Positions 15,735-59,970 of a stretch of 64,000 nt of DNA are shown here, piece after piece. Source of the stretch: Candidatus Krumholzibacteriia bacterium. Lineage in GTDB: Bacteria; Krumholzibacteriota; Krumholzibacteriia; LZORAL124-64-63. The first letter of the stretch is position 1. Each line of letters opens with the position of its first letter. The notes beneath the pieces were generated by a model, which made no database searches, had not been told where the DNA came from, and worked only from the letters and a program-made list of their open reading frames with translations. The stretch spans positions 100,957 through 164,956 of the forward strand of contig JBFXKG010000004.1 of NCBI GenBank assembly GCA_050174015.1, read 5' to 3'. The translations under genes were made by a program, and so were the position numbers.

Positions 15735-15959
15735 CTAACCGACCTTGCCCATCAGCAGGATGGTGGCGACCAGAGCGTAGATGGTCAGGGCCTCGATGAA
15801 GGCGCAACCGATGATCATGGCCGTCTGAATCTGGCCGATGGCTTCGGGCTGACGGCCCATGGCGTTCATGCCGCCTTCGATGGCGCGACCGAGACCGAGA
15901 CCCGAGCCGATGGCCGCCAGGCCGAGACCGATGGGGAGAGCGAATCCGAGCAGATCCAT
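15735..15959 (-). CDS. atpE: F-type ATP synthase subunit c
   Basis: 74 aa, two TM helices, GxGxGxG loop (IGLGLAAIGSGLGLG) and a conserved carboxylate in helix 2 (FIEALTIYALVA). Confidence 0.9.
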   Translation of the reverse strand: MDLLGFALPIGLGLAAIGSGLGLGRAIEGGMNAMGRQPEAIGQIQTAMIIGCAFIEALTIYALVATILLMGKVG

Positions 15960-16034: not shown

Positions 16035-17105
16035 CTAGTGCCCGTGGGCCTCCTCGTGACCGTGATGACCATGGTCATGAGGCAGCCACAGGGCAATATA
16101 GACCGTCGACAGCAGGGTGAAGACCAGCGCCTGGATGGTGCTGGACAACAGACCCAGGAAGTAGAACGGGAACTGCAGGGGCAGACCCGGCACGAAATCG
16201 GATCCGGTGAGGCCGTAGCTGATGCCGGCGCCCAGCAGGACCATGGTGGCCACCAGGGTCTCCTCGCCGAAGATGTTGCCGAACAGACGCAGGCTCAGCG
16301 AGATGGGCTTGATCAGCTCGCCCACCAGATGCAGGGGGAAGAACAGCCAGACCAGGGCCCACTCGACCCCTGACCTGGGGGATCCCGCCATGTGGAACAG
16401 GTACCCGCCCACCCCGTTGAGCCTCAGGGCGGTCCCCTGCACGTACAGGAAGGTCAGCGCCCCCAGGGCGAAAGTGGTGTTGGCGAAGCTGCTGGTCGCC
16501 GCATGCCCCAGAGGGATGATGCCGAACAGGTTGTTGCAGAGGATGAAGATGAACAGGGAGCCGAGGTAGGGCGTGTACTTGCGGGCGTCCTCGCCGAGGA
16601 TGGTCCGGAACAGGGAGTAGAGCCCCCCGAAGATCATCTCGACGGCCATCTGCATGCGGCCGGGCCGGCGGGCGTCCAGCTTCCTCGACAGGATGACGAA
16701 GACCACCGCCAGGACCAGGGCCATGAACAGGGAGAAGATGGGATCCTTGGCCGCGTCCAGCCTGGCGGCGAAGTCGGCAGGGACCCACTGCTCGATGAAG
16801 GTCAGGGCGCTGGGCAGATGGGGCATGCCCCCGTGGCCACCCCCGTGCTCGCCGTTCGCATCCCCGTGGGCCTCGGCGGCATGGGGATCGGCGGCGTGGA
16901 CGTCGATGGGCGCGTGATCGTCCCCGTGGTCGGTCTCCTGGCCGTGGGCGTCATGCTGTTCGGCGGCCTGCCGGGTGTCGTGGGCGTCATGCTGGGCGGA
17001 AGCGACGGACCCCACGCCCGATGCGAACAGGACGGCACCGAGGACGAGCAGCCAGGCAGCCGGGACTTTGGTCTGCAATTTGCGCATGTTCATCCAGATC
17101 ATTCC
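16035..17105 (-). CDS. atpB: F-type ATP synthase subunit a with His/Asp-rich N-terminal extension and His-rich C-terminus
   Basis: Start trimmed to MIWMNMRKLQTKVPAAWLLVLGAVLFASGVGSVASA (signal peptide); alternative in-frame ATGs lie at 17096 and 17090. Then about 60 aa of His/Asp-rich sequence (QHDAHDTRQAAEQHDAHGQETDHGDDHAPIDVHAADPHAAEAHGDANGEHGGGHGGMPH). Canonical a-subunit follows, including the conserved Arg region (LSLRLFGNIFGEE). C-terminal tail HDHGHHGHEEAHGH. Confidence 0.85.
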   Translation of the reverse strand, partial: GMIWMNMRKLQTKVPAAWLLVLGAVLFASGVGSVASAQHDAHDTRQAAEQHDAHGQETDHGDDHAPIDVHAADPHAAEAHGDANGEHGGGHGGMPHLPSALTFIEQWVPADFAARLDAAKDPIFSLFMALVLAVVFVILSRKLDARRPGRMQMAVEMIFGGLYSLFRTILGEDARKYTPYLGSLFIFILCNNLFGIIPLGHAATSSFANTTFALGALTFLYVQGTALRLNGVGGYLFHMAGSPRSGVEWALVWLFFPLHLVGELIKPISLSLRLFGNIFGEETLVATMVLLGAGISYGLTGSDFVPGLPLQFPFYFLGLLSSTIQALVFTLLSTVYIALWLPHDHGHHGHEEAHGH

Positions 17106-17545
17106 GGTCCATCGTGAGGGGTCGGCTTGGTGGCAGTTCCCGGCCCGGAGGCCCCTGGGGACACGACAACCTGCCGGGTCTTGATCTCCATCGAACGTGC
17201 CCGGGAACCGAGCACCACCAGGACGACCATCAGCAAAGTGAAGCCGACGGCGTGACTCACCCCTGGAAACGGTCGGGAAAATAACACCCAGACCGCAACC
17301 GCGTAAACAGCCAATTTGGCCAGGAACCAGAGAAAAACCGCGAATCCGTTGCGGGGCGCGCCTGGCGGCACCACCGCCGCGCGCAACAATCTTTCGAGGA
17401 CGAAGAACCCCGTCACCGCCCACAGGGCCGTCAGCAGCACGCCCAGGGCGAAGGGGCGCGAAACGGCCAGCCAGCACGCTCCGGACGCCGGCAAGGCGAT
17501 CAAAATAGTCCAAAATCGAACGCGGGCAAGGAGGGAATCGGTCAA
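17099..17545 (-). CDS. atpI: putative ATP synthase protein I (AtpI/AtpZ-like small membrane protein)
   Basis: Four predicted TM helices (FWTILIALPASGACWLAV, ALGVLLTALWAVTGFFVL, FAVFLWFLAKLAVYAVAVWVLF, VGFTLLMVVLVVLG) immediately upstream of atpB. Start proposed at the TTG at 17545, preceded by GAGGAA (agaggaaaacgccgttTTG). The long 5' extension in the ORF track is discounted. Confidence 0.4.
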   Translation of the reverse strand: MTDSLLARVRFWTILIALPASGACWLAVSRPFALGVLLTALWAVTGFFVLERLLRAAVVPPGAPRNGFAVFLWFLAKLAVYAVAVWVLFSRPFPGVSHAVGFTLLMVVLVVLGSRARSMEIKTRQVVVSPGASGPGTATKPTPHDGPE

Positions 17546-17933: not shown

Positions 17934-20147
17934 TCAGAAGCCCACCACCCTGACGGGTCCGGCCGCCCGATGCTTGAGGGCCACCTCCTCCTCCAGGAGG
18001 GCCAGGAGATCGGCGTGCGTCGTCCGGCGGACCCCCTGCATCCGGAGGTTGCGCCGGATCAAGGCCATGTCGGCGGCCGTCAACGGGTCGAGGGCGCACA
18101 ATCGCCGCCTTTCCTCGGCCGAAGGGGCGCCCGGAGCCAGGGGCGCCAGCAGCCGGTCGTAGGTGGCCTCGATCCCCGCCGGCTCCAGGGGTCGGAACTC
18201 GACCTTCAGGGCGAACCTGCGCAGGGCGGCCGGATCCAGGGCGTCCAGCCGGTTGGTGGTGCAGATGACGGCCCCGTGATGCTGTTCGATCTGCACGAGC
18301 AGTTCGTTCACCATGCTGATTTCCCAGGTACGCCGGGAACGGCTGCGGGACGCCAGGAAGGTGTCGACCTCGTCGATCACCAGGACCGCCCCGGTCGCCG
18401 CGGCCTCGGCGAAGGCCTTCGCGAGGTTGCGCTCGGTCATGCCCACGTAGGGGTCGAGGATCTCGCTGGCCTTGCGCGTGACCACCGGGCGGCCCGCCGC
18501 GGCAGCCAGGTACCCTGCCGTCAGGGTCTTGCCGGTTCCCGGCTGGCCGTGGAAGAGCATGGCCAGGGCTCCCCGCTCGCCGGCCACGGCCGACTTGTCC
18601 AGATCCTTGACGTACCGGACCATCTGGCGGATCAGCGCCCGCAGGGGCCGCGAGGGATTCACCCCGCACTCGAGGAACTCGACGGCGGGCCCCTTGCGGA
18701 CCTCGACCCGGCGCTTGACCCCCTGCAGCCCCGCCTGGGCTTCGAGAGTCCTGCCAAAGGCCTCGCGACAGGCCCGCGGGGTGGTCTGGATCCCCGACGC
18801 CACCCTGGCGGCCATGGCGAACACCGCCGGAGCCAGGGTGAACTCCCCGGCCAGCCTGGTCACCTCCGCGGCGGTGAAGTGCCTCTTGATGCGGTGCCGC
18901 CGGAGGATTCCGTCGAGCATCGCCGCCCGCTTTTCCCCGTCCAGGGGAGGCAACTCCAGGCTGTAGGCGAACCGGCGCCTGACCGCCGGATCGATGCCGT
19001 CGTGTTCGTTGACGATCCAGATGCCCCGCGAGCCGGGCAGTTCCAGGATCCCGTTGAGGTAGCCCTTGTCCATCACTTCACCCCGGTGGAACCAGGGGCG
19101 GTCGGTGTTGAGCAGCTGGTCGGCCTCGTCCACGAAGACGAGAGCTCCCGCCTGTCCCGCCGCCATTTCCAGGCAGGCGGCCAGGGCGGCACGGCGGGCC
19201 CGGGCCTCGTTCTGGCGCTGGCCCAGCACCTCGAACCCCCGCAGTCCCAGTTCCGCGCACATGGCGCGGCACAGGGTGGTCTTGCCGGTGCCCGGAGGTC
19301 CGTAGACCAGGATGTGCACCGGGGCGTCCCCTCCGGAGGTCAACAGGAGCCGCATCAGGTCGAGCTTGCCCGTCTCGATTCCGAGGTCGTCGGCCGCCAA
19401 AGCGGATCCGGGAACCGGGCGGAAGAGTTCCTGCCTCGCGGGCGCCTGATCGGGATCGGCGAAGAACGGCAGGAATTCCTCGCTGATCTGCAGCCACTTG
19501 CGGTCGGTGTCGAGGATGCCCATGCCGGCCAGCTTGCCTCCCAGGACCGTCCCCATTTCCGCGGGAGCCAGTCCCAGGGCGGTGACCAGGCCGTCCCTGC
19601 CCCGGGGCTCGTCGCAGTGGAGGTGGTTCTCGAAGAAGTCCTGGACCGGTTCCCACCAGCGCATCGCCGTGAAGAAGAAACAGAACTCGGTCTCCTGCTC
19701 GGAAAGCCCGAACAGCCGGCGGGTCCCATCGAGATGCCGGGCCAGCGGCGAGGCCTGGAAACGGTCCCTGCCGGCGGCCCACCCGGTCAGGCGGTCGGAC
19801 AGGGTCGAGGCCAGACGCTGGAGACGGGCCGGAGGGGCCCCGTTGTGGACCACCGAGACCACCGACGCCATGTCCTGGGGGTCTCCCCAGGCCCGGCGCA
19901 GGTCGGGCAGCAGGCGGTCCCGGTCGGTGTCGCTCAGCAGGTCGTCCACCAGGGTCTGGGTTCCCGCCGGATCGACCCCGGCGACCCAGAAGGCGAACCC
20001 GAGGGTTTCCCGGTCGATGGTGCGCCGGCGGGCGACCGTGCGGGCGGCCCACTCCGCACAGGCGCAGAGAGTGAACTGGAGGTTGGCATCGGGATTTCCG
20101 GGTGTCTTCTCCTTCCGCTTGCGGGCTCGGGCGTAGAATCGCGTCAT
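17934..20147 (-). CDS. tandem AAA+ ATPase (two classical AAA modules) with about 300-aa N-terminal domain of unknown function
   Basis: Start trimmed to MTRFYARARKRK with strong RBS aaggagattgcccATG. AAA1: Walker A GPPGTGKTT, Walker B ALVFVDEADQL, Arg finger AVRRRF. AAA2: Walker A GQPGTGKTL, Walker B VLVIDEVDTF, Arg finger AALRRF. 737 aa. Confidence 0.8.
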   Translation of the reverse strand: MTRFYARARKRKEKTPGNPDANLQFTLCACAEWAARTVARRRTIDRETLGFAFWVAGVDPAGTQTLVDDLLSDTDRDRLLPDLRRAWGDPQDMASVVSVVHNGAPPARLQRLASTLSDRLTGWAAGRDRFQASPLARHLDGTRRLFGLSEQETEFCFFFTAMRWWEPVQDFFENHLHCDEPRGRDGLVTALGLAPAEMGTVLGGKLAGMGILDTDRKWLQISEEFLPFFADPDQAPARQELFRPVPGSALAADDLGIETGKLDLMRLLLTSGGDAPVHILVYGPPGTGKTTLCRAMCAELGLRGFEVLGQRQNEARARRAALAACLEMAAGQAGALVFVDEADQLLNTDRPWFHRGEVMDKGYLNGILELPGSRGIWIVNEHDGIDPAVRRRFAYSLELPPLDGEKRAAMLDGILRRHRIKRHFTAAEVTRLAGEFTLAPAVFAMAARVASGIQTTPRACREAFGRTLEAQAGLQGVKRRVEVRKGPAVEFLECGVNPSRPLRALIRQMVRYVKDLDKSAVAGERGALAMLFHGQPGTGKTLTAGYLAAAAGRPVVTRKASEILDPYVGMTERNLAKAFAEAAATGAVLVIDEVDTFLASRSRSRRTWEISMVNELLVQIEQHHGAVICTTNRLDALDPAALRRFALKVEFRPLEPAGIEATYDRLLAPLAPGAPSAEERRRLCALDPLTAADMALIRRNLRMQGVRRTTHADLLALLEEEVALKHRAAGPVRVVGF

Positions 20148-20192
20148 GGGCAATCTCCTTTCGGATCGGTTGATGCCGAATCTAACCCGAAA

Positions 20193-20212
20193 CCGTTCCA
20201 AATTTCGGAACG
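20193..20212. promoter_or_regulatory. inverted repeat CGTTCC-N7-GGAACG upstream of the AAA+ gene (site B)
   Basis: CCGTTCCAAATTTCGGAACG, 45-65 nt upstream of the ATG at 20147 and downstream of the WYL-gene terminator. Shares the CGGAACG half-site with sites C and D. Confidence 0.3.
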
Positions 20213-20249
20213 ATCGGTCAGTGGCCGGATCGACCGGAAAGGAATGCCC

Positions 20250-20279
20250 AAAAAAAGGCCCGGCGGGGAGAGCCGGGCC
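20250..20279 (-). terminator. Rho-independent terminator between the WYL regulator gene and the AAA+ gene
   Basis: 8-bp stem GGCCCGGC / GCCGGGCC with 7-nt loop (20257-20279), followed on the minus strand by seven U (plus-strand A-run 20250-20256). Confidence 0.7.
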
Positions 20280-20464
20280 AGATGAGCAATCCGTTTGCAC
20301 GGATCAGTTCCGACCGTTTAGCGAATTGTTTTACGTGGCTGCAAGCAATTCGGCTCCAAATCACCACGGGGCGGCGGGGCCCCCAGGTCCGGGTTTCCAC
20401 ATCCGACCGGTCAACACGATAACAAATCCTCCTCGAAATGTCAAGCGAAATCAATTCAAGTCGT

Positions 20465-54787: not shown

Positions 54788-57679
54788 ATGAAACAGGCAT
54801 TGATCATCCTCGCGGTCACGATCGCCGCCTTCCCCAGCTGGGCCTCGCTCGTCGACCGCGTCGACCCCTTCATCGGCACCGGCGGCCACGGCCACACCTT
54901 CCCCGGCCCCACCCTGCCGTTCGGGATGGTGCAGCTCTCCCCCGACACCCGCCTCGAAGGCTGGGACGGCTGCTCGGGCTACCACTTCTCCGACACGGCC
55001 GTCTTCGGCTTCAGCCACACCCACCTGAGCGGCACCGGGGTCGGCGACTACGGCGACATCCTCCTGATGCCCGTGACCGGCGAACCCCGGCTGGACAACG
55101 GCTATCCCGACCGGGTGGACGAGGGCTACGGTTCGCGCTTCCTCAAGGAAACCGAGCGTGCCGAGGCCGGCTGGTACGCCGTCCATCTCGACGACTACGG
55201 CATCGACGTCGAGCTGACCGCCACCCCTCGCACCGGCCTGCACCGCTACGTGTTTCCCGCCGGCGAGCCCGCCCACGTCATCATCGACCTCACCCACCGC
55301 GACGAGCTGCTCGACGTCGATCTGACCGTCCCCGACGACAGGACAGTCGCCGGCTTCCGCCGCTCCGCGGCCTGGGCCCGCGACCAGATGGTCCACTTCC
55401 GGGCTGCGTTCTCGCGGCCGTTCAACGCGTCGAAGATCATCACCGACGACATCGGCAGGCCGCTCAAGGCGGTGCTGTCCTTCGGCGACCAGGGCGGCGA
55501 CCTGCTGGTCCAGGTCGGGATCTCGGCGGTCGACGACGCCGGCGCCCGCGGCAACCTCGAAGCCGAGTGGGCCGACTTCGACTTCGCCGCGACCCGCGCC
55601 AAGGCCCGCGCCGCCTGGTCCGCCGTCCTGGACCGCTTCGAGGTCACCGGCGCCGACGATGCCGACCTGACCGTCCTGGCCACAGCCCTCTACCACAGCT
55701 TCATCGCCCCCAACCTGTTCAGCGACGCCGACGGCCGGTACCGCGGCATGGACCTCGCCACTCACACCGCCGAGGGTCGCAACCAGTACACCGTGTTCTC
55801 CCTGTGGGACACCTACCGCGCCACCCATCCCCTGTTCACCCTGGTCGAGCGCGGCCGCACGCAGGACTTCGTCGCCACCATGATGGCCCAGTACGACCAG
55901 GGCGGCCGCCTCCCCGTGTGGGAGCTGGCCGCCAACGAGACGGACTGCATGATCGGCTACCACAGCGTCTCGGTCATCGCCGACGCCTATCTCAAGGGCA
56001 TCGTGACCGGCGGCGAGGATCACGCCCTGGACGCCATGATCGACATCGCGAAGCGGGATCACTTCGGCCTCGACGCCTACAAGCGCGACGGATTCATCTC
56101 CGCCGACCTCGAGTCCGAGTCGGTGAGCAAGACCCTCGAGTACGCCTACGACGATCTCTGCATCGCCCGCATGGCCGCCATGACCGGCCGGATGGATGCG
56201 TTCGACGAGTTCAGCCGGCGGTCCCTGGCCTGGCGACACCTGTATGATCCGGCCACCGGTTGCTTCCGTCCCCGCATCAACGGCCAGTGGCTGAAACCCT
56301 ACGATCCCCGCCGGGTCGACAACCACCATACCGAGGCCAACGGGTGGCAGTACCGCTTCGCCGCGCCCCACGACCTGCAGGCCCACATCCAGGTCTGCGG
56401 CGGCGACGGACCCTTCCTCGCAGCCCTCGATTCATTGTTCAGCGTCGTGAGCGCGACCACCGGCCGCGACCAGCCCGACATCACCGGCCGCATCGGCCAG
56501 TACGCCCACGGCAACGAACCCAGCCATCACGTGGGCTGGCTCTACCACGGGGCCGGAAGGCCTCAGAAGAGCGCCGACCGCATCGCTCACATCCTCGACG
56601 AGTTCTACACCCCCCTGCCCGACGGCCTGATCGGCAACGAGGACTGCGGGCAGATGTCCAGCTGGTACGTCCTGGCCGCCTACGGCCTGTACGACATCGC
56701 GCCCTCCTCCCGTCAATGGCTGGTCATCCCGCCCCGGCACGAGCGCATGTCCATGCGGTTCGAAAACGGCGCCGTCTTCACCACCCGGCGCGTAGGGACC
56801 GGCGCCGTCGAGAGCGTCACCTGGAACGGGAAGCCCCTTTCGCGCAGCTTCCTCTGGCACCACGAGGTGGTCGATGGGGGCGAGCTCGTCTTCCAGCTCG
56901 GCGAGGAAGGCGAGTGGGGCAAGGCCCTCGAGGACCGTCCGCCCAGCAGCGCCCGCCTGGGCGACGTCATTCCCGCCCCCTGGGCCGATGCGCCGGCCCA
57001 GCGCTTCCGGGGACGCCTGAAGATCGCCCTGGGGGTGGACGACCCCCGGGCCGAGATCCGCTGGACCGATGACCCCCAGGTCGATCCGCACCTGGGCGCG
57101 GTCTACGACAAGGCCATCACCATCGCCGCCACCACCACCCTGCGCTTCGTCGCCATGAAACATCCGCAGGAGCCCAGTCCGGTCGTCGCCGCCACCTTCA
57201 CGGCCCTTCCCGAAGACTGGTCGGTGACCCTGGGCGCCGAACCCAATCCGCAGTACACCGCCGGCGGCCCGGACGCCCTGATCGACGGGGTGCGCGGACC
57301 CGAGGACTGGCGCCGCGGCGGATGGCACGGCTACGAGGGGCAGGACTTCCTGGCCACGCTGGATCTTGGCGGGCCGACTCCCCTGCGACGGGTTGGCGCT
57401 TCCTTCCTGCAGGACGTGCGCTCGTGGATCGTGATGCCGCGGGAATTGCTGGTCGAAACCTCCCGGGACGGGAGAACGTTCAGTCCCGCCGGCCGGGTCG
57501 CTCCCGACGTGGCGGTCGAGGACTACGGCGTCATCATGCGCGACCTGACGGTGGAACTCGACGGCGCCCCGGTCCGGACCCTCCGTTTCACTGCGACCGG
57601 ATCCGGACCCATGCCGCCGTGGCACCCCGGCGCCGGCGGCGCATCCTTCATCTTCGTCGACGAGCTGATCGTCGAATGA
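54788..57679 (+). CDS. glycoside hydrolase family 92 (alpha-1,2-mannosidase-like) with C-terminal F5/8-type-C/discoidin-like domain
   Basis: Signal peptide; GH92 N- and C-domain motifs (DRVDPFIGTGGHGHTFPGPTLPFGMVQLSPDT ... HGNEPSHH ... GNEDCGQMSSWYV); about 200-aa C-terminal extra domain. Confidence 0.85.
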   Translation: MKQALIILAVTIAAFPSWASLVDRVDPFIGTGGHGHTFPGPTLPFGMVQLSPDTRLEGWDGCSGYHFSDTAVFGFSHTHLSGTGVGDYGDILLMPVTGEPRLDNGYPDRVDEGYGSRFLKETERAEAGWYAVHLDDYGIDVELTATPRTGLHRYVFPAGEPAHVIIDLTHRDELLDVDLTVPDDRTVAGFRRSAAWARDQMVHFRAAFSRPFNASKIITDDIGRPLKAVLSFGDQGGDLLVQVGISAVDDAGARGNLEAEWADFDFAATRAKARAAWSAVLDRFEVTGADDADLTVLATALYHSFIAPNLFSDADGRYRGMDLATHTAEGRNQYTVFSLWDTYRATHPLFTLVERGRTQDFVATMMAQYDQGGRLPVWELAANETDCMIGYHSVSVIADAYLKGIVTGGEDHALDAMIDIAKRDHFGLDAYKRDGFISADLESESVSKTLEYAYDDLCIARMAAMTGRMDAFDEFSRRSLAWRHLYDPATGCFRPRINGQWLKPYDPRRVDNHHTEANGWQYRFAAPHDLQAHIQVCGGDGPFLAALDSLFSVVSATTGRDQPDITGRIGQYAHGNEPSHHVGWLYHGAGRPQKSADRIAHILDEFYTPLPDGLIGNEDCGQMSSWYVLAAYGLYDIAPSSRQWLVIPPRHERMSMRFENGAVFTTRRVGTGAVESVTWNGKPLSRSFLWHHEVVDGGELVFQLGEEGEWGKALEDRPPSSARLGDVIPAPWADAPAQRFRGRLKIALGVDDPRAEIRWTDDPQVDPHLGAVYDKAITIAATTTLRFVAMKHPQEPSPVVAATFTALPEDWSVTLGAEPNPQYTAGGPDALIDGVRGPEDWRRGGWHGYEGQDFLATLDLGGPTPLRRVGASFLQDVRSWIVMPRELLVETSRDGRTFSPAGRVAPDVAVEDYGVIMRDLTVELDGAPVRTLRFTATGSGPMPPWHPGAGGASFIFVDELIVE

Positions 57680-57696
57680 CCCGGGTCGAGGTGCGT

Positions 57697-59970
57697 ATGA
57701 GATCCGTCATCCTGGCACTGGCCGTCGCCCTGGCGGCCCCCGGTCCGCAGGCGTCCGCCGCCGGGGACCTCGCCCGCCACGTCGATCCCCTGGTCGGCAC
57801 CCGCAACATGGGCCACACCTTTCCCGGAGCCGTCGTGCCCTTCGGTCTGGTCCAGCTCAGCCCGGACACCCGGCACCTGTCCATGTACGACGCAGAGGGC
57901 AAGTACGTCCCCGAGGTCTACCGCTACTGCGCCGGCTACCAGTACGAGGACAGCACCATCGTCGGGTTCAGCCACACGCACTTCAGCGGCACCGGGCACT
58001 CCGACCTGGGCGACGTCTCCCTGCTGCCGGTGATGGGAGACGTGGACCTGGACGCCGGTCCCTCCGCGCGGTTCGATCACGCCACCGAGACGGCCGAACC
58101 CGGCTTCTACCTCGTCCGCCTGGAAGACCCGGGCATCACCGCCGAACTGACCGCCACCACCCGCACCGGCTGGCACCGCTACACCTTCGACCAGGCAGGC
58201 GAAGCCCACGTGGTCCTCGACCTCGTGGCCAACATCTACGACCACGACGACAAGAACGTCTGGACCTTCGTCCGCGTGGAGAACGACACCCTGGTCACCG
58301 GCTACCGCATCACCACCGGCTGGGCCCGCACCCGTACCGTGTACTTCGCCATCGCCTTCGACCGCCCGATCTCGAGCTATGGCCACCGGCGCCTGGACCC
58401 CACCCCCTACCGCGGGTTCTACCGGCGCTTCGACCAGGAGCACGACTTCCCCGAGATGGCCGGCCGCGACCTGCGGGCGCAGTTCGCCTTCCCCGTCCAG
58501 GCCGGGGACCGGCTCACCGTCAAGGTCGCGCTCTCCGGGGTCAGCACTGCGGGCGCTCTTGCCAACCTCGCCGCCGAAGCCCCCGGCTGGGACTTCGACC
58601 AGGTCCGCGCGGCCGCGCGAGCGGCCTGGAACCGGGAACTGGGCCGCATCGAGGCTGTCACCACCACTTCCGACCAGGCCTCCATCTTCTACACGGCCCT
58701 GTACCACACCATGCTGGGTCCGGTGGTCTACGAGGACATCGACGGCAGTTACCGCGGCCTCGACCAGAACGTCCACGTCTCCGACGGTTTCACCAACTAC
58801 ACGGTCTTCTCCCTGTGGGACACCTACCGGGCCCTGCATCCTCTGTTCAACCTGCTCCAGCCGGCGCGCAACGCCGACATGATCGCTAGCATGCTCGCGC
58901 ACTTCGACCAGAGCGTTCACCCCATGCTGCCGGTGTGGAGCCATCACGCCAACGAGAACTGGTGCATGATCGGTTACCACAGCGTGTCGGTGATCGCCGA
59001 TGCCGCGGTCAAGGGCGTGGGGGGATTCGACCTCGGCCGCGCGCTGAAGGCCTGCGCGACCACCGCCTCGGTGCCCTCCTTCGACGGGGTGGGCGAGATG
59101 ATGGAGCTGGGTTACGTGCCCGATGAGGCGACCGGATCCTCGGTGAGCGTGACCCTGGAACTGGCCTACGACGACTGGTGCATCGCGCAGCTGGCCCGCC
59201 TGGCCGGTGACCGCGGAACGGAGCAGCGGTTCCAGGCGCGGTCCCGCAACTTCGCGAACGTCTTCGATCCGGACATCGGCTTCATGCGGCCCCGCCTGCG
59301 TGACGGTTCATGGCGCGAGGACTTCGACACCATGGCGACCCACGGCCAGGGCTTCATCGAGGGCAACGCCTGGAACTACGGGCTGTACGTCCCCCACGAC
59401 GTGCCCGCCCTGGTGACCATGATGGGCGGCCCCGGACGTCTCGGCGCCCACCTCGACCGGCTGTTCACCATGGAGCTCGGCGACGAGCACATTGCCCACA
59501 CCGAGGACATCACCCGCGACGGGATCATCGGGAACTACGTCCACGGCAACGAACCGGGCCACCACATCGCCTACCTTTACAACTGGACCGACCGGCCCTG
59601 GCGGACCCAGGAGCGGGTGCGCATGATCCTGGACACCATGTACGGGACGGGTCCGTCCGGCCTGTGCGGCAACGACGACCTGGGCCAGATGTCCGCCTGG
59701 TACGTCTTCAGCGCCCTGGGATTCTACCCGGTGTGCCCCGGGTCGCCCGAGTACGCCCTGGGCAGCCCGCTGGTCGAACGCGCGGACGTGCACCTGGAGA
59801 ACGGCCGCACCCTGACCGTCGTCGCGCACGATCAGGGTCCGGAAAACGTCTACGTGCAGAAGGTGGAAGTGGACGGCAAGCGGATCGAACGCCGCTACCT
59901 GACCCACGAGGAGCTGATCGCCGGGAGCCGCATCGAGTTCTTCATGGGCCCGGAGCCCGCGGGACGTTGA
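57697..59970 (+). CDS. glycoside hydrolase family 92 (alpha-1,2-mannosidase-like), second paralogue
   Basis: Start at MRSVILALAVALAAPGPQASAAG (57697); alternative ATG at 57676 overlaps the upstream stop (ATGA). Same GH92 motifs (HVDPLVGTRNMGHTFPGAVVPFGLVQLSPDT ... HGNEPGHH ... GNDDLGQMSAWYV). Confidence 0.85.
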   Translation: MRSVILALAVALAAPGPQASAAGDLARHVDPLVGTRNMGHTFPGAVVPFGLVQLSPDTRHLSMYDAEGKYVPEVYRYCAGYQYEDSTIVGFSHTHFSGTGHSDLGDVSLLPVMGDVDLDAGPSARFDHATETAEPGFYLVRLEDPGITAELTATTRTGWHRYTFDQAGEAHVVLDLVANIYDHDDKNVWTFVRVENDTLVTGYRITTGWARTRTVYFAIAFDRPISSYGHRRLDPTPYRGFYRRFDQEHDFPEMAGRDLRAQFAFPVQAGDRLTVKVALSGVSTAGALANLAAEAPGWDFDQVRAAARAAWNRELGRIEAVTTTSDQASIFYTALYHTMLGPVVYEDIDGSYRGLDQNVHVSDGFTNYTVFSLWDTYRALHPLFNLLQPARNADMIASMLAHFDQSVHPMLPVWSHHANENWCMIGYHSVSVIADAAVKGVGGFDLGRALKACATTASVPSFDGVGEMMELGYVPDEATGSSVSVTLELAYDDWCIAQLARLAGDRGTEQRFQARSRNFANVFDPDIGFMRPRLRDGSWREDFDTMATHGQGFIEGNAWNYGLYVPHDVPALVTMMGGPGRLGAHLDRLFTMELGDEHIAHTEDITRDGIIGNYVHGNEPGHHIAYLYNWTDRPWRTQERVRMILDTMYGTGPSGLCGNDDLGQMSAWYVFSALGFYPVCPGSPEYALGSPLVERADVHLENGRTLTVVAHDQGPENVYVQKVEVDGKRIERRYLTHEELIAGSRIEFFMGPEPAGR

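What the first reader, a model, noticed from the sequence alone, without database searches (positions are those of the whole stretch)
16035..17105. ATP synthase subunit a carries a signal peptide plus His/Asp-rich N-terminal extension and a His-rich C-terminal tail
The atpB reading frame is continuous from a signal-peptide-like start (MIWMNMRKLQTKVPAAWLLVLGAVLFASGVGSVASA) through about 60 residues with a periodic HD/AH pattern (HDAHDTRQAAEQHDAHGQETDHGDDHAPIDVHAADPHAAEAHGDANGEHGGGHGGMPH) into a canonical a-subunit. It ends HDHGHHGHEEAHGH. Such His-rich, likely periplasm-facing, metal-binding segments are not part of standard Fo a-subunits and could bind Zn/Ni/Cu or buffer protons at the half-channel entrance.
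Basis: seen in the sequence. Interest (0 to 1): 0.5.

Follow-up and report, generated by a model that had tools for sequence, protein, structure and literature searches.

The report
ATP synthase a-subunit with histidine-rich tails
This bacterium's ATP synthase a-subunit (the proton-channel subunit) really carries an export signal, a floppy histidine/acid-rich tail on the outer side of the membrane and a short histidine tail on the inner side; over a hundred relatives share the design, the outer tail seems undescribed, and both tails sit where protons enter and leave.

Summary
The gene is window 16035..17102 (-), 355 aa, three bases shorter than reported. It is one uninterrupted frame made of four parts:
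- a signal-peptide-like start (aa 1-36, ASA|Q)
- a 56-aa stretch with 11 His, 16 Asp/Glu and one Arg (aa 37-92)
- a canonical F-type a-subunit core (Pfam 176 bits; Arg272 in LRLFGN)
- a 14-aa tail with 7 His

It is not an assembly error. A Logan contig is identical in DNA. An 85%-identical orthologue has an in-frame 20-codon deletion in the extension. The ~120 best homologues (51-100% identity) share the architecture wherever both ends could be scored.

The extension keeps its composition and even His spacing, not its sequence. AlphaFold predicts it disordered. Shorter versions occur in Poribacteria and Armatimonadota.

Topology puts the N-extension in the periplasm beside the proton-entry half-channel. 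The C-tail is a longer form of a common short tail (E. coli SEEH, Bacillus PS3 SHDH, P. aeruginosa HEDNH, which binds Zn). It parallels the ice-worm ATP6 His tail that raised ATP synthesis about 5-fold.

Most likely function, inferred only: local proton collection and release, possibly modulated by metal. This is a new variant of a known kind, of moderate interest.

The parts
16995..17102 (-). Signal-peptide-like N-terminus, aa 1-36 (MIWMNMRKLQTK / VPAAWLLVLGAVLFA / SGVGSVASA|Q). The ATG at 17102-17100 overlaps the TGA at 17101-17099 of the upstream gene (ATGA coupling).
   Evidence: Sequence read. Three Lys/Arg lie before the hydrophobic run, with A-x-A at -3/-1. 111 of 120 homologues have such a run, with Ala at -1 in 81 and Gln/Glu/Asp at +1 in 86. 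AlphaFold gives a helix at 12-36. There is no Cys (no lipobox) and no twin-Arg motif, read directly from the sequence. Cleavage is inferred, not shown.
16827..16994 (-). His/Asp/Ala/Gly-rich N-terminal extension, aa 37-92: 11 His, 16 Asp+Glu, 1 Arg, 0 Lys. Net charge is about -9 at pH 7 and -12 at pH 8 or above. Predicted disordered and periplasmic.
   Evidence: Composition and binomial P = 2.7e-7. pLDDT is below 50 with no secondary structure for 33-93. Across 89 homologues the length is 36-109 aa, His 11-28%, Asp+Glu 10-35%, median Lys+Arg 0 and hydrophobics 3%. Nearest-neighbour His spacing peaks at 5 (z = 20) and 4 (z = 9), and adjacent HH is depleted (17 against 164 expected). Extension identity is 36-54% where core identity is 61-92%. 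L081 has an in-frame 20-codon indel. There is no DNA tandem repeat. Charge calculation.
16737..16826 (-). Conserved periplasmic lead-in to helix 1, aa 93-122 (MPHLPSALTFIEQWVPADFAARLDAAKDPI). Pro94, His95 and Pro121 are invariant in the clade. This is the canonical N-terminal region of subunit a.
   Evidence: Invariant columns. pLDDT rises to about 87 at 101-110, with helices 100-104 and 109-141. Equivalence to the E. coli 'GHHLNNL' region is my inference from memory of that sequence and was not aligned here.
16080..16736 (-). Canonical F-type a-subunit core, aa 123-341 (five membrane helices). It contains Arg272 (16287-16289) in LSLRLFGN, equivalent to E. coli Arg210.
   Evidence: Pfam PF00119 at 175.9 bits. 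TIGR01131 at 112.2 against a cut-off of 102.6. Sequence alignments to solved a-subunits 5dn6_X, 6fkf_a, 6n2d_a, 9o1a_a and 5t4o_K. Foldseek hits of the model to subunit-a chains with probability 1.0.
16392..16394 (-). His237, invariant in the clade, in the cytoplasmic loop before helix 5. It aligns with P. aeruginosa Glu182 (a Zn ligand) and E. coli Glu177.
   Evidence: Pairwise HMMER alignments, invariance, and ligand identities from PMC12796488.
16329..16331 (-). His258, invariant in the clade. It aligns with E. coli Glu196 and P. aeruginosa Glu207 at the cytoplasmic half-channel.
   Evidence: Alignments and invariance. The role of Glu196/Glu207 is from PMC6377231 and PMC12796488.
16038..16079 (-). 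C-terminal His-rich tail, aa 342-355 (HDHGHHGHEEAHGH; 7 His, 3 Asp/Glu). It follows the invariant L-P-H and is predicted disordered and cytoplasmic.
   Evidence: Binomial P = 5.6e-8. Across 116 homologues the tails are 6-35 aa with 41% His, and most end AHGH or EHGH. pLDDT is below 50 for 346-355. H342/D343/H344/H346 align to P. aeruginosa H285/E286/D287/H289 and to Bacillus PS3 H235/D236/H237.
17099..17545 (-). Upstream AtpI-like membrane protein (148 aa as called in the identical contig L082), translationally coupled to atpB.
   Evidence: Gene call in L082/L081. Weak Pfam ATP-synt_I match (E = 0.011, 16.5 bits, below the 25.1 cut-off). In other lineages the same 'FLxRVR...' protein is fused in frame to subunit a.
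15735..15959 (-). atpE (c-subunit), the next gene in the operon. Its ion-binding region lacks the Na+ signature, so the enzyme is taken to be H+-coupled.
   Evidence: Pfam ATP-synt_C. I compared it by eye with the Ilyobacter tartaricus motif, recalled from memory (Q32->L, S66->A, T67->L; E65 and Y70 kept). This is inference, not a tool result.

Best explanation
This is the genuine a-subunit (atpB) of the main H+-translocating F1Fo ATP synthase of a Krumholzibacteriota-like bacterium. It is a clade-typical long form with two intrinsically disordered, histidine/carboxylate-rich appendages, one at each proton half-channel.

**Shown**
- The frame, the operon context and the canonical core.
- Conservation of the architecture in the ~120 best homologues.
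- Predicted disorder of both appendages.

**Inferred from topology rules and solved homologues**
- A cleavable Sec-type signal peptide (aa 1-36) inserts N-in/C-out. This lets the Sec machinery export the 56-residue, strongly acidic extension, which could hardly cross the membrane as an unassisted N-tail.
- After cleavage at ASA|Q the extension stays tethered to the periplasmic end of helix 1. It lies next to the mouth of the periplasmic (entry) half-channel, which is formed by helices 1, 3, 4 and 5.
- The 14-residue (HX)n tail leaves helix 6 on the cytoplasmic side, next to the exit half-channel. There the family also has invariant His237 and His258 in place of E. coli Glu177 and Glu196.

**Proposed mechanism (inferred, not shown)**
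- Outside, about 12 His spaced every 4-6 residues among about 16 carboxylates form a polyanionic buffer that titrates near neutral pH. It would concentrate protons and hand them to the entry channel, acting as a proton-collecting antenna.
- Inside, the His cluster and tail would accept protons leaving the c-ring and pass them to the bulk.
- The inner tail would do this either as a mobile proton shuttle, as proposed for the ice-worm ATP6 tail, or by ordering the exit channel around a bound Zn, as in P. aeruginosa.
- The net effect would be higher proton flux in the synthesis direction when bulk proton supply is limiting.
For: **Identity and context**
- Pfam and TIGR01131 are above their cut-offs, and Arg272 lies in LRLFGN.
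- Gene order is atpI-like, a, c, b, delta, alpha.
- The alternate N-ATPase model scores far below its cut-off (72 against 302 bits).

**Real and under selection**
- DNA is identical in a Logan contig, and there is an in-frame indel in an 85% orthologue.
- Composition, lack of Lys/Arg and of hydrophobic residues, and His spacing are kept, while sequence identity in the extension drops to 36-54% and its length varies from 36 to 109 aa.
- The signal-peptide features are conserved.
- Similar but shorter modules occur in Poribacteria and Armatimonadota.
- The module persists in lineages where AtpI is fused to a.

**Topology**
- 3 Lys/Arg lie before the hydrophobic run.
- The extension and lead-in to helix 1 hold 17 Asp/Glu against 3 Lys/Arg.
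- The segment after helix 1 holds 4 Lys/Arg.
- This matches the N-out/C-in a-subunit.

**Position relative to the channels**
- PMC6377231 states that the periplasmic half-channel is a cavity between helices 1, 3, 4 and 5. It also places C-terminal residues (Tyr228, His231) near the cytoplasmic half-channel.

**Disorder:**

**Functional precedent for the C-tail**
- The ice-worm 18-aa alternating-His tail fused to E. coli or Caulobacter AtpB raised apparent synthesis Vmax about 5-fold and left hydrolysis unchanged (PMC12035521).
- The P. aeruginosa C-tail coordinates a probable Zn capping the exit channel, and ligand mutants lose 25-45% of synthesis (PMC12796488).
- Our H344 and H346 align with its ligands D287 and H289, and our H237 with E182.

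**His pattern of the N-extension**
- HH and HxH are strongly depleted and spacings of 4-6 are enriched. This differs from typical (HX)n chelating loops.

**Coupling ion:** the c-subunit lacks the Na+ motif (by eye).
Against: - No experiment or computation here measures proton handling. The antenna idea rests on position, composition and analogy with proton-collecting antennae of cytochrome oxidase and reaction centres (from my own knowledge).
- Signal-peptide cleavage is not shown, and no SignalP-type predictor was available.
- The N- and C-appendages do not strictly co-occur. Vicinamibacteria and other Acidobacteriota have long His C-tails but no N-extension, so a single two-sided system is not required.
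- The His periodicity statistic treats related sequences as independent.
- Many bacteria living at similar pH lack any such extension.
- The ice-worm result is normalised to western-blot signal, and its mechanism is unresolved by the authors' own account.
- The AlphaFold model is of modest quality (mean pLDDT 67; TM about 0.5 to solved a-subunits). I did not measure the geometry of the tails relative to the channels.
Confidence: 0.45

Rival explanations
1. Metal-binding appendages. The His-rich segments bind Zn/Ni/Cu/Co. The C-tail, with His237 and His258, would form a metal cap on the cytoplasmic exit channel as in P. aeruginosa. The periplasmic extension would be a low-affinity metal sponge or a metal-dependent gate, for example Zn blocking proton entry. 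Its primary role would be metal sensing, buffering or structural ordering rather than proton buffering.
For: - The C-tail is (HX)n-like with 41% His across the family.
- Its residues align with P. aeruginosa ligands D287 and H289, and invariant His237 aligns with ligand E182.
- The P. aeruginosa paper itself suggests that His-rich a-subunit tails may bind Zn.
- The isolated N-terminal 121 aa gives only weak compositional hits to CopL and ZrgA metal proteins (E = 0.039 and 0.46).
- From general knowledge, His/Asp-rich disordered loops in ZnuA, ZIP and CDF proteins bind metals.
Against: - The fourth P. aeruginosa ligand position (H186) is Ser241 here.
- The CopL and ZrgA hits are far below their cut-offs (14.6 against 40 bits; 10.1 against 185).
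- In the N-extension, HH and HxH are strongly depleted and His sits 4-6 residues apart. That is a poor geometry for high-affinity chelation in a disordered chain.
- No Fo function is known to need a periplasmic metal.
- The two readings are not exclusive for the C-tail.
Confidence: 0.25
2. Tolerated low-complexity spacers with no specific role in catalysis. The extension would be a fast-evolving disordered linker kept only to be soluble, non-sticky and exportable, hence acidic and free of Lys/Arg. The signal peptide would exist only because a long N-tail must be exported. The C-tail would be a drifted elongation of the common ...EEH end.
For: - The extension evolves faster than the core: 8 non-synonymous changes in 36 aligned codons against 15 in 219.
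- Its length varies three-fold, and it is shorter in Poribacteria and absent in the Acidobacteriota loci examined.
- From my recollection of Eya et al. 1991, not checked here, the last seven residues of E. coli subunit a are dispensable.
- AlphaFold finds no structure.
Against: - Neutral drift would not hold His at 11-28%, which is 4 to 10 times background.
- It would not keep His spacing regular, nor exclude Lys/Arg, across 89 sequences whose extensions share only 36-54% identity.
- It would not maintain the same module in distant lineages (about 45% core identity) and in fused AtpI-a proteins.
- There is no DNA tandem repeat that could explain the pattern by recent slippage.
- A His tail at this position has measurable effects in two experimental systems.
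Confidence: 0.15
3. Removable pro-region. Signal peptide and His-rich extension would both be cleaved off during assembly, so the mature subunit starts near Met93/Pro94. N-terminal processing of this kind is known for yeast Atp6 (10-aa presequence) and chloroplast AtpI. The extension would act only as an insertion or assembly chaperone.
For: - The invariant HG-x-MPHLP junction (His90, Pro94, His95) could be a processing site.
- N-terminal processing of a-subunits is known in yeast mitochondria and chloroplasts (from my own knowledge).
- The extension is disordered and so accessible to proteases.
Against: - Nothing here identifies a protease or a cleavage motif.
- A discarded pro-peptide would have little reason to keep a His-rich, evenly spaced composition over 36-109 residues.
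- The invariant residues are equally explained as the canonical N-terminal periplasmic segment of subunit a.
Confidence: 0.07
4. Artefact. A frameshift, chimeric assembly or wrong start codon would join a small His-rich ORF to atpB, with real translation starting at Met93.
For: An in-frame ATG (Met93) preceded by a G-rich stretch exists. The +1 frame across the extension is also open.
Against: - DNA is identical in a Logan contig.
- The closest orthologue has an in-frame 20-codon indel.
- The ~120 best homologues, from many samples, share the architecture.
- Met93 is Ile or Thr in many of them.
- The signal peptide is conserved.
- The ATGA start/stop overlap with the upstream gene supports Met1.
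- The GC pattern by codon position fits the annotated frame, whereas the shifted frame has an atypical GC2 of 0.86.
Confidence: 0.01

Closest known systems
Canonical bacterial F-type ATP synthase subunit a (AtpB: E. coli 271 aa, Bacillus PS3 237 aa; Pfam PF00119, TIGR01131)
   Same: The core has the same helix layout and carries the essential Arg in LRLFGN. It sits in the same operon position, with N-out/C-in topology and a short acidic/His C-terminus (E. coli SEEH; PS3 SHDH aligned to our PHDH).
   Different: About 92 extra N-terminal residues (signal peptide plus His/acid-rich extension), which none of the solved bacterial a-subunits matched here covers in the alignments. The C-tail is about 10 residues longer with 7 His. 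His replaces E. coli Glu177 and Glu196.
P. aeruginosa AtpB C-terminal tail coordinating a probable Zn that caps the cytoplasmic proton channel (PMC12796488; PDB 9o1a)
   Same: The tail is at the same position. Our H342/D343/H344/H346 align with P. aeruginosa H285/E286/D287/H289, and invariant His237 aligns with ligand Glu182. In P. aeruginosa the effect is on synthesis rather than hydrolysis.
   Different: Ligand His186 corresponds to Ser241 here. Our tail continues nine residues further with four more His. No metal has been observed. The authors report that the site is absent outside Pseudomonas in their survey.
Ice-worm (Mesenchytraeus solifugus) mitochondrial ATP6 18-aa His-rich C-terminal extension (PMC6047255, PMC12035521)
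   Same: Both are alternating-His, disordered tails appended to the C-terminus of the a/ATP6 subunit at the N-side exit of the proton path. The endings are similar in kind (…GHAHSHGF against …HEEAHGH). A proton-shuttle role has been proposed, and the tail raises synthesis when grafted onto bacterial AtpB.
   Different: The ice-worm tail was described as unprecedented and absent from other ATP6 sequences in GenBank. Here the tail is native to bacterial AtpB and common across several phyla. Homology cannot be shown for such low-complexity sequence. The ice worm has no N-terminal counterpart.
Proton-collecting antennae at proton entry points (cytochrome c oxidase D-pathway, bacterial reaction centre); functional analogue, from my own knowledge
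   Same: Clusters of surface His and carboxylates next to a proton entry point, which enlarge the capture area and buffer protons near neutral pH. Zn binding at such clusters inhibits uptake.
   Different: Those antennae are folded surface patches of the protein. Here it would be a tethered disordered chain added through a signal peptide. No kinetic data exist.
N-terminally processed a-subunits (yeast Atp6 presequence; chloroplast AtpI); from my own knowledge
   Same: An N-terminal segment that is not part of the mature canonical subunit and is removed after membrane insertion.
   Different: Those presequences are about 10-18 residues, are not Sec/SPase-I signal peptides and are not followed by a retained His-rich domain.
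NCBIfam NF009953 (PRK13419), a 346-position 'F0F1 ATP synthase subunit A' long-form model
   Same: The profile aligns along almost the whole protein including the extension (query 25-355 to profile 17-345). So at least one curated long-form a-subunit family exists.
   Different: The score is 125.8 bits against a cut-off of 460, so this protein is not a member. I could not see which organisms that model represents.

Membership tests
F-type ATP synthase subunit a (PF00119 / TIGR01131) | Profile match above the curated cut-off | tested here: met
   PF00119 scores 175.9 bits against 33.9. TIGR01131 scores 112.2 against 102.6.
F-type ATP synthase subunit a (PF00119 / TIGR01131) | Essential stator Arg in helix 5 (E. 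coli Arg210, motif RLxxN) | tested here: met
   Arg272 in LSLRLFGN aligns to the Arg of 5dn6_X, 6fkf_a, 6n2d_a, 9o1a_a and 1c17_M. It is invariant in 59 homologues.
F-type ATP synthase subunit a (PF00119 / TIGR01131) | Fo/F1 operon context (a, c, b, delta, alpha) | tested here: met
   ATP-synt_C and ATP-synt_B lie immediately downstream. OSCP and alpha are called in the syntenic locus L081.
F-type ATP synthase subunit a (PF00119 / TIGR01131) | Fold of solved a-subunits | tested here: met
   The AlphaFold model gives Foldseek hits only to subunit a/ATP6 chains at E <= 1e-3, with probability 1.0 and target-normalised TM of 0.45-0.55. Model quality is modest.
Alternate N-type ATPase subunit a (TIGR03306) | Profile match above the cut-off | tested here: not met
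   72 bits against a cut-off of 302.1. The operon also has a delta subunit.
Sec-dependent SPase-I signal peptide | Positively charged n-region, 7-15-residue hydrophobic h-region, small residues at -3/-1 | tested here: met
   MIWMNMRKLQTK has 3 Lys/Arg, the h-core is AAWLLVLGAVLFA, and the cleavage motif is A-S-A|Q. Among 111 homologues Ala is at -1 in 81 and at -3 in 57. This is a rule-based reading only.
Sec-dependent SPase-I signal peptide | Score from a trained predictor (SignalP/DeepTMHMM), and actual cleavage | not testable with these tools
   No such predictor is installed. Cleavage needs N-terminal proteomics.
P. aeruginosa-type metal-capped cytoplasmic channel | Two ligands from the C-terminal tail (Asp287, His289) | tested here: met
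   They align to His344 and His346, and His342 aligns to P. aeruginosa His285. These are compatible side chains only.
P. aeruginosa-type metal-capped cytoplasmic channel | Two ligands from the loop before helix 5 (Glu182, His186) | tested here: inconclusive
   Glu182 aligns to invariant His237, a possible ligand. His186 aligns to Ser241, not a usual ligand. Many homologues have HH at 236-237 (consensus).
P. aeruginosa-type metal-capped cytoplasmic channel | Bound metal ion observed | not testable with these tools
   Needs cryo-EM or ICP-MS of the purified enzyme.
Ice-worm-type His-rich ATP6 C-terminal extension | Alternating-His, disordered tail after the last helix of subunit a, on the N side | tested here: met
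   The tail is HDHGHHGHEEAHGH, with pLDDT below 50. Position comes from the alignments. The ice-worm sequence is from PMC6047255.
Ice-worm-type His-rich ATP6 C-terminal extension | Sequence homology to the ice-worm tail, and enhancement of ATP synthesis | not testable with these tools
   An 18-aa low-complexity sequence cannot establish homology. The activity needs biochemistry.
NCBIfam NF009953 (PRK13419) long-form subunit A | Score above the equivalog cut-off | tested here: not met
   125.8 bits against 460.
Named His-rich metal-binding families (CopL, ZrgA) | Profile match of the N-terminal 121 aa above the cut-off | tested here: not met
   CopL_fam scores 14.6 bits against 40 (E = 0.039). 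ZrgA scores 10.1 against 185 (E = 0.46).

The most novel reading that the evidence does not exclude
The exported His/carboxylate N-tail and the cytoplasmic His cluster and tail (His237, His258, aa 342-355) would form a natural two-sided proton-funnelling device on the Fo stator. One part is a tethered, disordered proton antenna at the entry half-channel and the other a proton sink at the exit. Possibly switchable by Zn, it would raise synthesis-direction proton flux at low proton availability. It would be the native and widespread bacterial counterpart of the 'unique' ice-worm ATP6 tail, and a new way of tuning ATP synthase kinetics without changing c-ring stoichiometry.
Probability: 0.3. Interest if true: 0.75.

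Novelty: new variant of a known kind. Interest (0 to 1): 0.55.

Why it matters
Subunit a holds both proton half-channels of the ATP synthase and is usually treated as a compact, invariant five-helix membrane protein. This finding bears on three points.

1. **A long form appears to be undescribed.** A large group of uncultivated bacteria (Krumholzibacteriota-like, Poribacteria, Armatimonadota and others) uses a long form. It needs a signal peptide to export a 36-110-residue His/acid-rich disordered tail to the proton-entry side. My full-text searches found no description of it.

2. **The C-terminal His tail is common in bacterial AtpB.** It is a natural trait, not a one-off of the ice worm as the 2018 and 2025 papers state. 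This gives hundreds of natural variants for testing whether such tails speed proton exit or bind Zn as in P. aeruginosa.

3. **It suggests a cheap evolutionary knob, if the antenna/sink reading is right.** The knob would adjust proton capture at low pmf or alkaline pH. It would also offer parts for engineering faster ATP synthases.

If the tails turn out to be inert spacers, the result is still useful for annotation. Start codons of these atpB genes should not be moved downstream, and AtpI-a fusions exist.

Tried and rejected
- **Frameshift, assembly error or wrong start.** Rejected.
- **Genome-wide quirk of His-rich proteins.** Rejected for this window. The only His/acid-rich, Lys/Arg-poor 35-aa windows in a coding-like frame are in atpB. 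The other hits are out-of-frame or antisense frames with atypical GC by codon position.
- **Recent DNA repeat expansion as the cause of the periodic His.** No tandem repeat was found in the extension.
- **Searching the 5.8-billion-protein index with the extension alone**, to see whether the module occurs on other proteins.
- **The listing of cluster members on ten distant representatives, to get taxonomy.** No organism names were returned.
- **First regex for extracting a-subunits from loci.** It was too strict and was replaced by phmmer on ORF segments.
- **Pfam and NCBIfam on the isolated N-terminus.** They gave only sub-threshold compositional hits: DUF2946, CopL, ZrgA and StpX.
- **Literature searches** for a signal peptide or N-terminal extension on bacterial subunit a, for Krumholzibacteriota ATP synthase and for proton antennae at ATP synthase. 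Nothing relevant turned up. The Chloroflexus structure paper (312-aa a-subunit) says nothing about a-subunit termini.
- **Na+-coupled or N-type ATPase.** Rejected on the TIGR03306 score and the c-subunit motif (by eye).
- **Lipoprotein or Tat signal.** Rejected because there is no Cys and no twin-Arg (read from the sequence).


Full report
**1. What is in the sequence**

On the minus strand there is a single open frame from ATG 17102-17100 to the stop at 16037-16035, giving 355 codons. Otherwise the quoted peptides are exact.

The start ATG overlaps the TGA of the upstream gene (ATGA), a typical sign of translational coupling. Pfam ATP-synt_A matches aa ~123-336 (175.9 bits against a gathering score of 33.9), and TIGR01131 is above its cut-off. 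The core aligns with solved a-subunits from Paracoccus, chloroplast, Bacillus PS3, P. aeruginosa, E. coli and mycobacteria. The stator arginine is Arg272 in LSLRLFGN.

Downstream lie atpE (c), atpF (b), atpH (delta) and atpA. Upstream lies a 148-aa membrane protein with a weak ATP-synt_I match. The N-ATPase model scores far below its cut-off. By eye the c-subunit lacks the Na+ signature. So this is the a-subunit of the main H+ F1Fo ATP synthase.

**2. Is the His-richness more than chance, and is the frame right?**

- The extension (aa 37-92) has 11 His in 56 residues. The tail has 7 in 14.
- Background in coding-like frames of the window is 2.7% His, giving P = 2.7e-7 and 5.6e-8.
- GC by codon position in the extension (0.93/0.45/0.86) fits the coding frame. 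The +1 frame is open but has GC2 of 0.86 and encodes a Pro/Thr/Arg string.
- A contig assembled from run SRR27751817 is identical in DNA over the gene.
- The syntenic orthologue L081 (85% aa identity) has an in-frame 20-codon deletion inside the extension and an identical C-tail.
- There is no DNA tandem repeat in the extension.
- No other coding-like frame in the window has such a segment.

Frameshift, chimera and mis-start are therefore excluded.

**3. Conservation**

The 120 best homologues in the 5.8-billion-protein index share 51-100% identity and come from JGI, ENA, NCBI and Logan. Those with names are called Candidatus Krumholzibacteriia or simply 'bacterium'.

| Feature | Count |
|---|---|
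| N-terminal hydrophobic run preceded by Lys/Arg | 111 of 120 |
| Ala at -1 of the predicted cleavage site | 81 of 111 |
| Gln, Glu or Asp at +1 | 86 of 111 |
| Extension that could be delimited automatically | 89 |
| Scorable His-rich C-tail | 116 |

For the 89 delimited extensions:
- Length is 36-109 aa.
- His is 11-28%.
- Asp+Glu is 10-35%.
- Median Lys+Arg is 0.
- Hydrophobic residues are about 3%.
- Pooled composition is A22 H17.5 G16.5 D11 E10.

Extension identity to the query is only 36-54% where core identity is 61-92%. So composition is kept, not sequence.

His spacing is regular. Nearest-neighbour distance 5 occurs 238 times against 73.5 expected (z = 20), and distance 4 has z = 9. 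Adjacent HH occurs 17 times against 164 expected. The residue after His is Gly or Ala, giving an (A/G)-H-(G/A)-x-x pentad. This statistic treats related sequences as independent, so its size is overstated, but the direction is clear by eye.

After the extension comes an invariant junction (His90, Pro94, His95...Pro121). The C-tails (116 sequences) are 6-35 aa with 41% His, and most end AHGH or EHGH.

**4. Breadth**

A HMMER scan of 1.84 billion 50%-cluster representatives found 3,695 related proteins at E <= 1e-3 and 148 at E <= 1e-30. Among the best 150:
- 85 of 120 with an intact C-terminus have at least 3 His in the tail.
- 49 of 106 with at least 40 residues before helix 1 have a window of 6 or more His in 40 aa.
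- 11 begin with the AtpI-like 'FLxRVR' motif. These are in-frame AtpI-a fusions that still contain an internal signal-like helix followed by a DAHG-type stretch, for example P0135, P0127 and P0141.

In genome loci:
- Poribacteria have a signal peptide plus a short AEDAH...HGG extension and a ...EHHDEEHGAEAHH tail.
- Armatimonadota have a signal peptide plus a 20-30-aa His/Gly/Glu stretch and tails with up to 10 His.
- Vicinamibacteria and other Acidobacteriota have no N-extension but long His tails.
- Methylomirabilota end ...GHEEHH and Desulfovibrionaceae end ...EHAH.

So the C-tail is an old and common trait, while the N-module occurs in several lineages and is longest in the window's clade. 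The retrieval used the tail peptide as one of six search patterns, and the ranking includes the tails. Both samples are therefore somewhat biased towards His-rich ends.

**5. Structure and topology**

AlphaFold2 with a 59-sequence alignment (mean pLDDT 67) gives:
- a helix for aa 12-36
- no secondary structure and pLDDT below 50 for 33-93
- confident helices for the core
- a disordered end at 346-355

The model hits only subunit-a chains in the PDB.

Charge distribution follows the positive-inside rule for an N-out mature protein. There are 3 Lys/Arg before the signal-peptide core. The extension and lead-in hold 17 Asp/Glu against 3 Lys/Arg. The segment after helix 1 holds 4 Lys/Arg.

This agrees with the established N-periplasmic, C-cytoplasmic topology of bacterial subunit a (my knowledge; consistent with PMC6377231). 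That paper states that the periplasmic half-channel is a cavity between helices 1, 3, 4 and 5. It also places C-terminal residues Tyr228 and His231 of the PS3 subunit near the cytoplasmic half-channel.

Hence the N-extension is tethered at the entry mouth and the C-tail at the exit mouth.

**6. The cytoplasmic side in detail**

Pairwise alignments give these correspondences:

| This protein | P. aeruginosa | E. coli / Bacillus PS3 |
|---|---|---|
| His342-Asp343-His344-Gly345-His346 | His285-Glu286-Asp287-Asn288-His289 | PS3 His235-Asp236-His237 |
| His237 (invariant) | Glu182 | E. coli Glu177 |
| Ser241 | His186 | E. coli Gln181 |
| His258 (invariant) | Glu207 | E. coli Glu196 |

In P. aeruginosa, Glu182, His186, Asp287 and His289 coordinate a metal, probably Zn, that caps the exit channel. 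Glu207 orients His289. Single Ala mutants lose 25-45% of synthesis (more than 70% for Glu207) with little effect on hydrolysis (PMC12796488).

So this family has a histidine-based exit vestibule, with three of the four ligand positions occupied by possible ligands. Whether it binds metal cannot be told here.

**7. Precedent from the ice worm**

The ice-worm mitochondrial ATP6 has an 18-aa C-terminal extension, (V/P)QDRSQAH(S/A)PGHAHSHGF. It was described as unprecedented and of possible microbial origin (PMC6047255). Grafted onto E. coli or Caulobacter AtpB, it raised apparent synthesis Vmax about 5-fold without changing hydrolysis-driven pumping. Its authors propose that it shuttles protons away from the exit pore (PMC12035521).

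The tail here is the same kind of thing at the same place, but native to bacterial AtpB and widespread.

**8. Mechanism proposed**

*Shown:*
- a real, conserved long-form a-subunit
- disorder of both appendages
- H+-type operon context

*Inferred:*
- Sec export and SPase-I cleavage
- a periplasmic location for the extension
- a cytoplasmic location for the tail

*Hypothesis:*
- The extension carries about 12 His with pKa near neutrality, embedded in about 16 carboxylates. Net charge is about -9 at pH 7 and -12 at pH 8.
- It would act as a tethered proton-collecting antenna and local buffer at the entry channel.
- The His cluster and tail would accept protons at the exit, as a mobile shuttle or through a Zn-ordered channel.
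- The even His spacing and the avoidance of HH and HxH in the extension fit a distributed buffer better than a chelator. The (HX)n tail fits both.

I put this at 0.45.

**9. Rivals**

| Rival | Confidence | Main reason |
|---|---|---|
| Primarily metal-binding | 0.25 | Not exclusive for the C-tail |
| Inert spacer | 0.15 | Argued against by conserved composition and spacing across deep divergence, and by experimental effects of such tails |
| Pro-region removed at the invariant HG-x-MPHLP junction | 0.07 | No protease or cleavage motif identified |
| Artefact | 0.01 | Excluded by section 2 |

**10. Novelty**

The core is an ordinary AtpB. C-terminal His tails on subunit a have two experimental reports from 2025. 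I found no description of a signal peptide plus exported His/acid-rich N-terminal tail on subunit a.

A curated long-form model exists (NF009953), and its profile aligns through the extension. The score is far below its cut-off, and I could not identify its source organisms, so sequences of this kind may already sit unremarked in cultured genomes.

I rate it a new variant of a known kind, with interest 0.55.

Noticed in passing
window 17099..17545 (-); also P0130, P0135, P0127, P0141, P0153: The upstream 148-aa membrane protein (weak ATP-synt_I match, E = 0.011) overlaps atpB by ATGA. In at least 11 of the 150 best 50%-cluster representatives the same 'FLxRVR...' protein is fused in frame to subunit a (440-560 aa). 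These fusions keep an internal signal-peptide-like helix and a DAHG-type His stretch between the two parts, which may be a polyprotein cut by signal peptidase.
   Followed up: partly
window 16329..16331 and 16392..16394 (-): Two clade-invariant histidines, His258 and His237, occupy the positions of E. coli Glu196 and Glu177 (P. aeruginosa Glu207 and Zn ligand Glu182). In this family the cytoplasmic exit region is His-based rather than carboxylate-based.
   Followed up: partly
window 16824..16826 (-), codon Met93: There is an in-frame ATG just after the extension, preceded by a G-rich stretch (GGGGGTGGCCACGGGGGC) that resembles a Shine-Dalgarno sequence. A second, short isoform starting here cannot be excluded in this organism, although the position is Ile or Thr in many homologues.
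   Followed up: partly
window 17934..20300 (-): A 788-aa protein with two AAA+ ATPase domains lies directly upstream of the atp operon. It is in the same position in the related loci L081 and L082.
   Followed up: no
window 15735..15959 (-): The c-subunit (74 aa) keeps the ion-binding Glu and Tyr. It has Leu, Ala and Leu at the positions of the Ilyobacter Na+ ligands Gln32, Ser66 and Thr67 (compared by eye from memory), so it is probably H+-specific.
   Followed up: partly
L041 and P0275-P0393 (Armatimonadota): Armatimonadota a-subunits of about 300-320 aa carry very long C-tails, for example GDSHGHDEHGHGHDVHGHQDAAHAH with up to 10 His. Many also have a signal peptide plus a short HGG/E-rich N-stretch ending in a conserved NPLAEHP motif.
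   Followed up: partly
L037-L080 (Acidobacteriota/Vicinamibacterales loci): These a-subunits start directly at MEKLEHPLWIV, with no signal peptide and no extension. They end in 20-30-aa His-rich tails such as AVEHHEDEHGHDAPSGHQAPAAA. So the two appendages are separable in evolution.
   Followed up: partly
window 57073..59967 (+): A long stop-to-stop frame with a coding-like GC3 of 0.84 contains a His/Arg-rich stretch (GHHHRRHHHPALRRHE...). It may lie upstream of the real start codon. I did not examine it.
   Followed up: no
window 16035..17102 compared with L082: The gene is identical at the nucleotide level to Logan contig SRR27751817_245882 (14.7 kb). The window's organism, or the same sample, is therefore present in that public run.
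   Followed up: no
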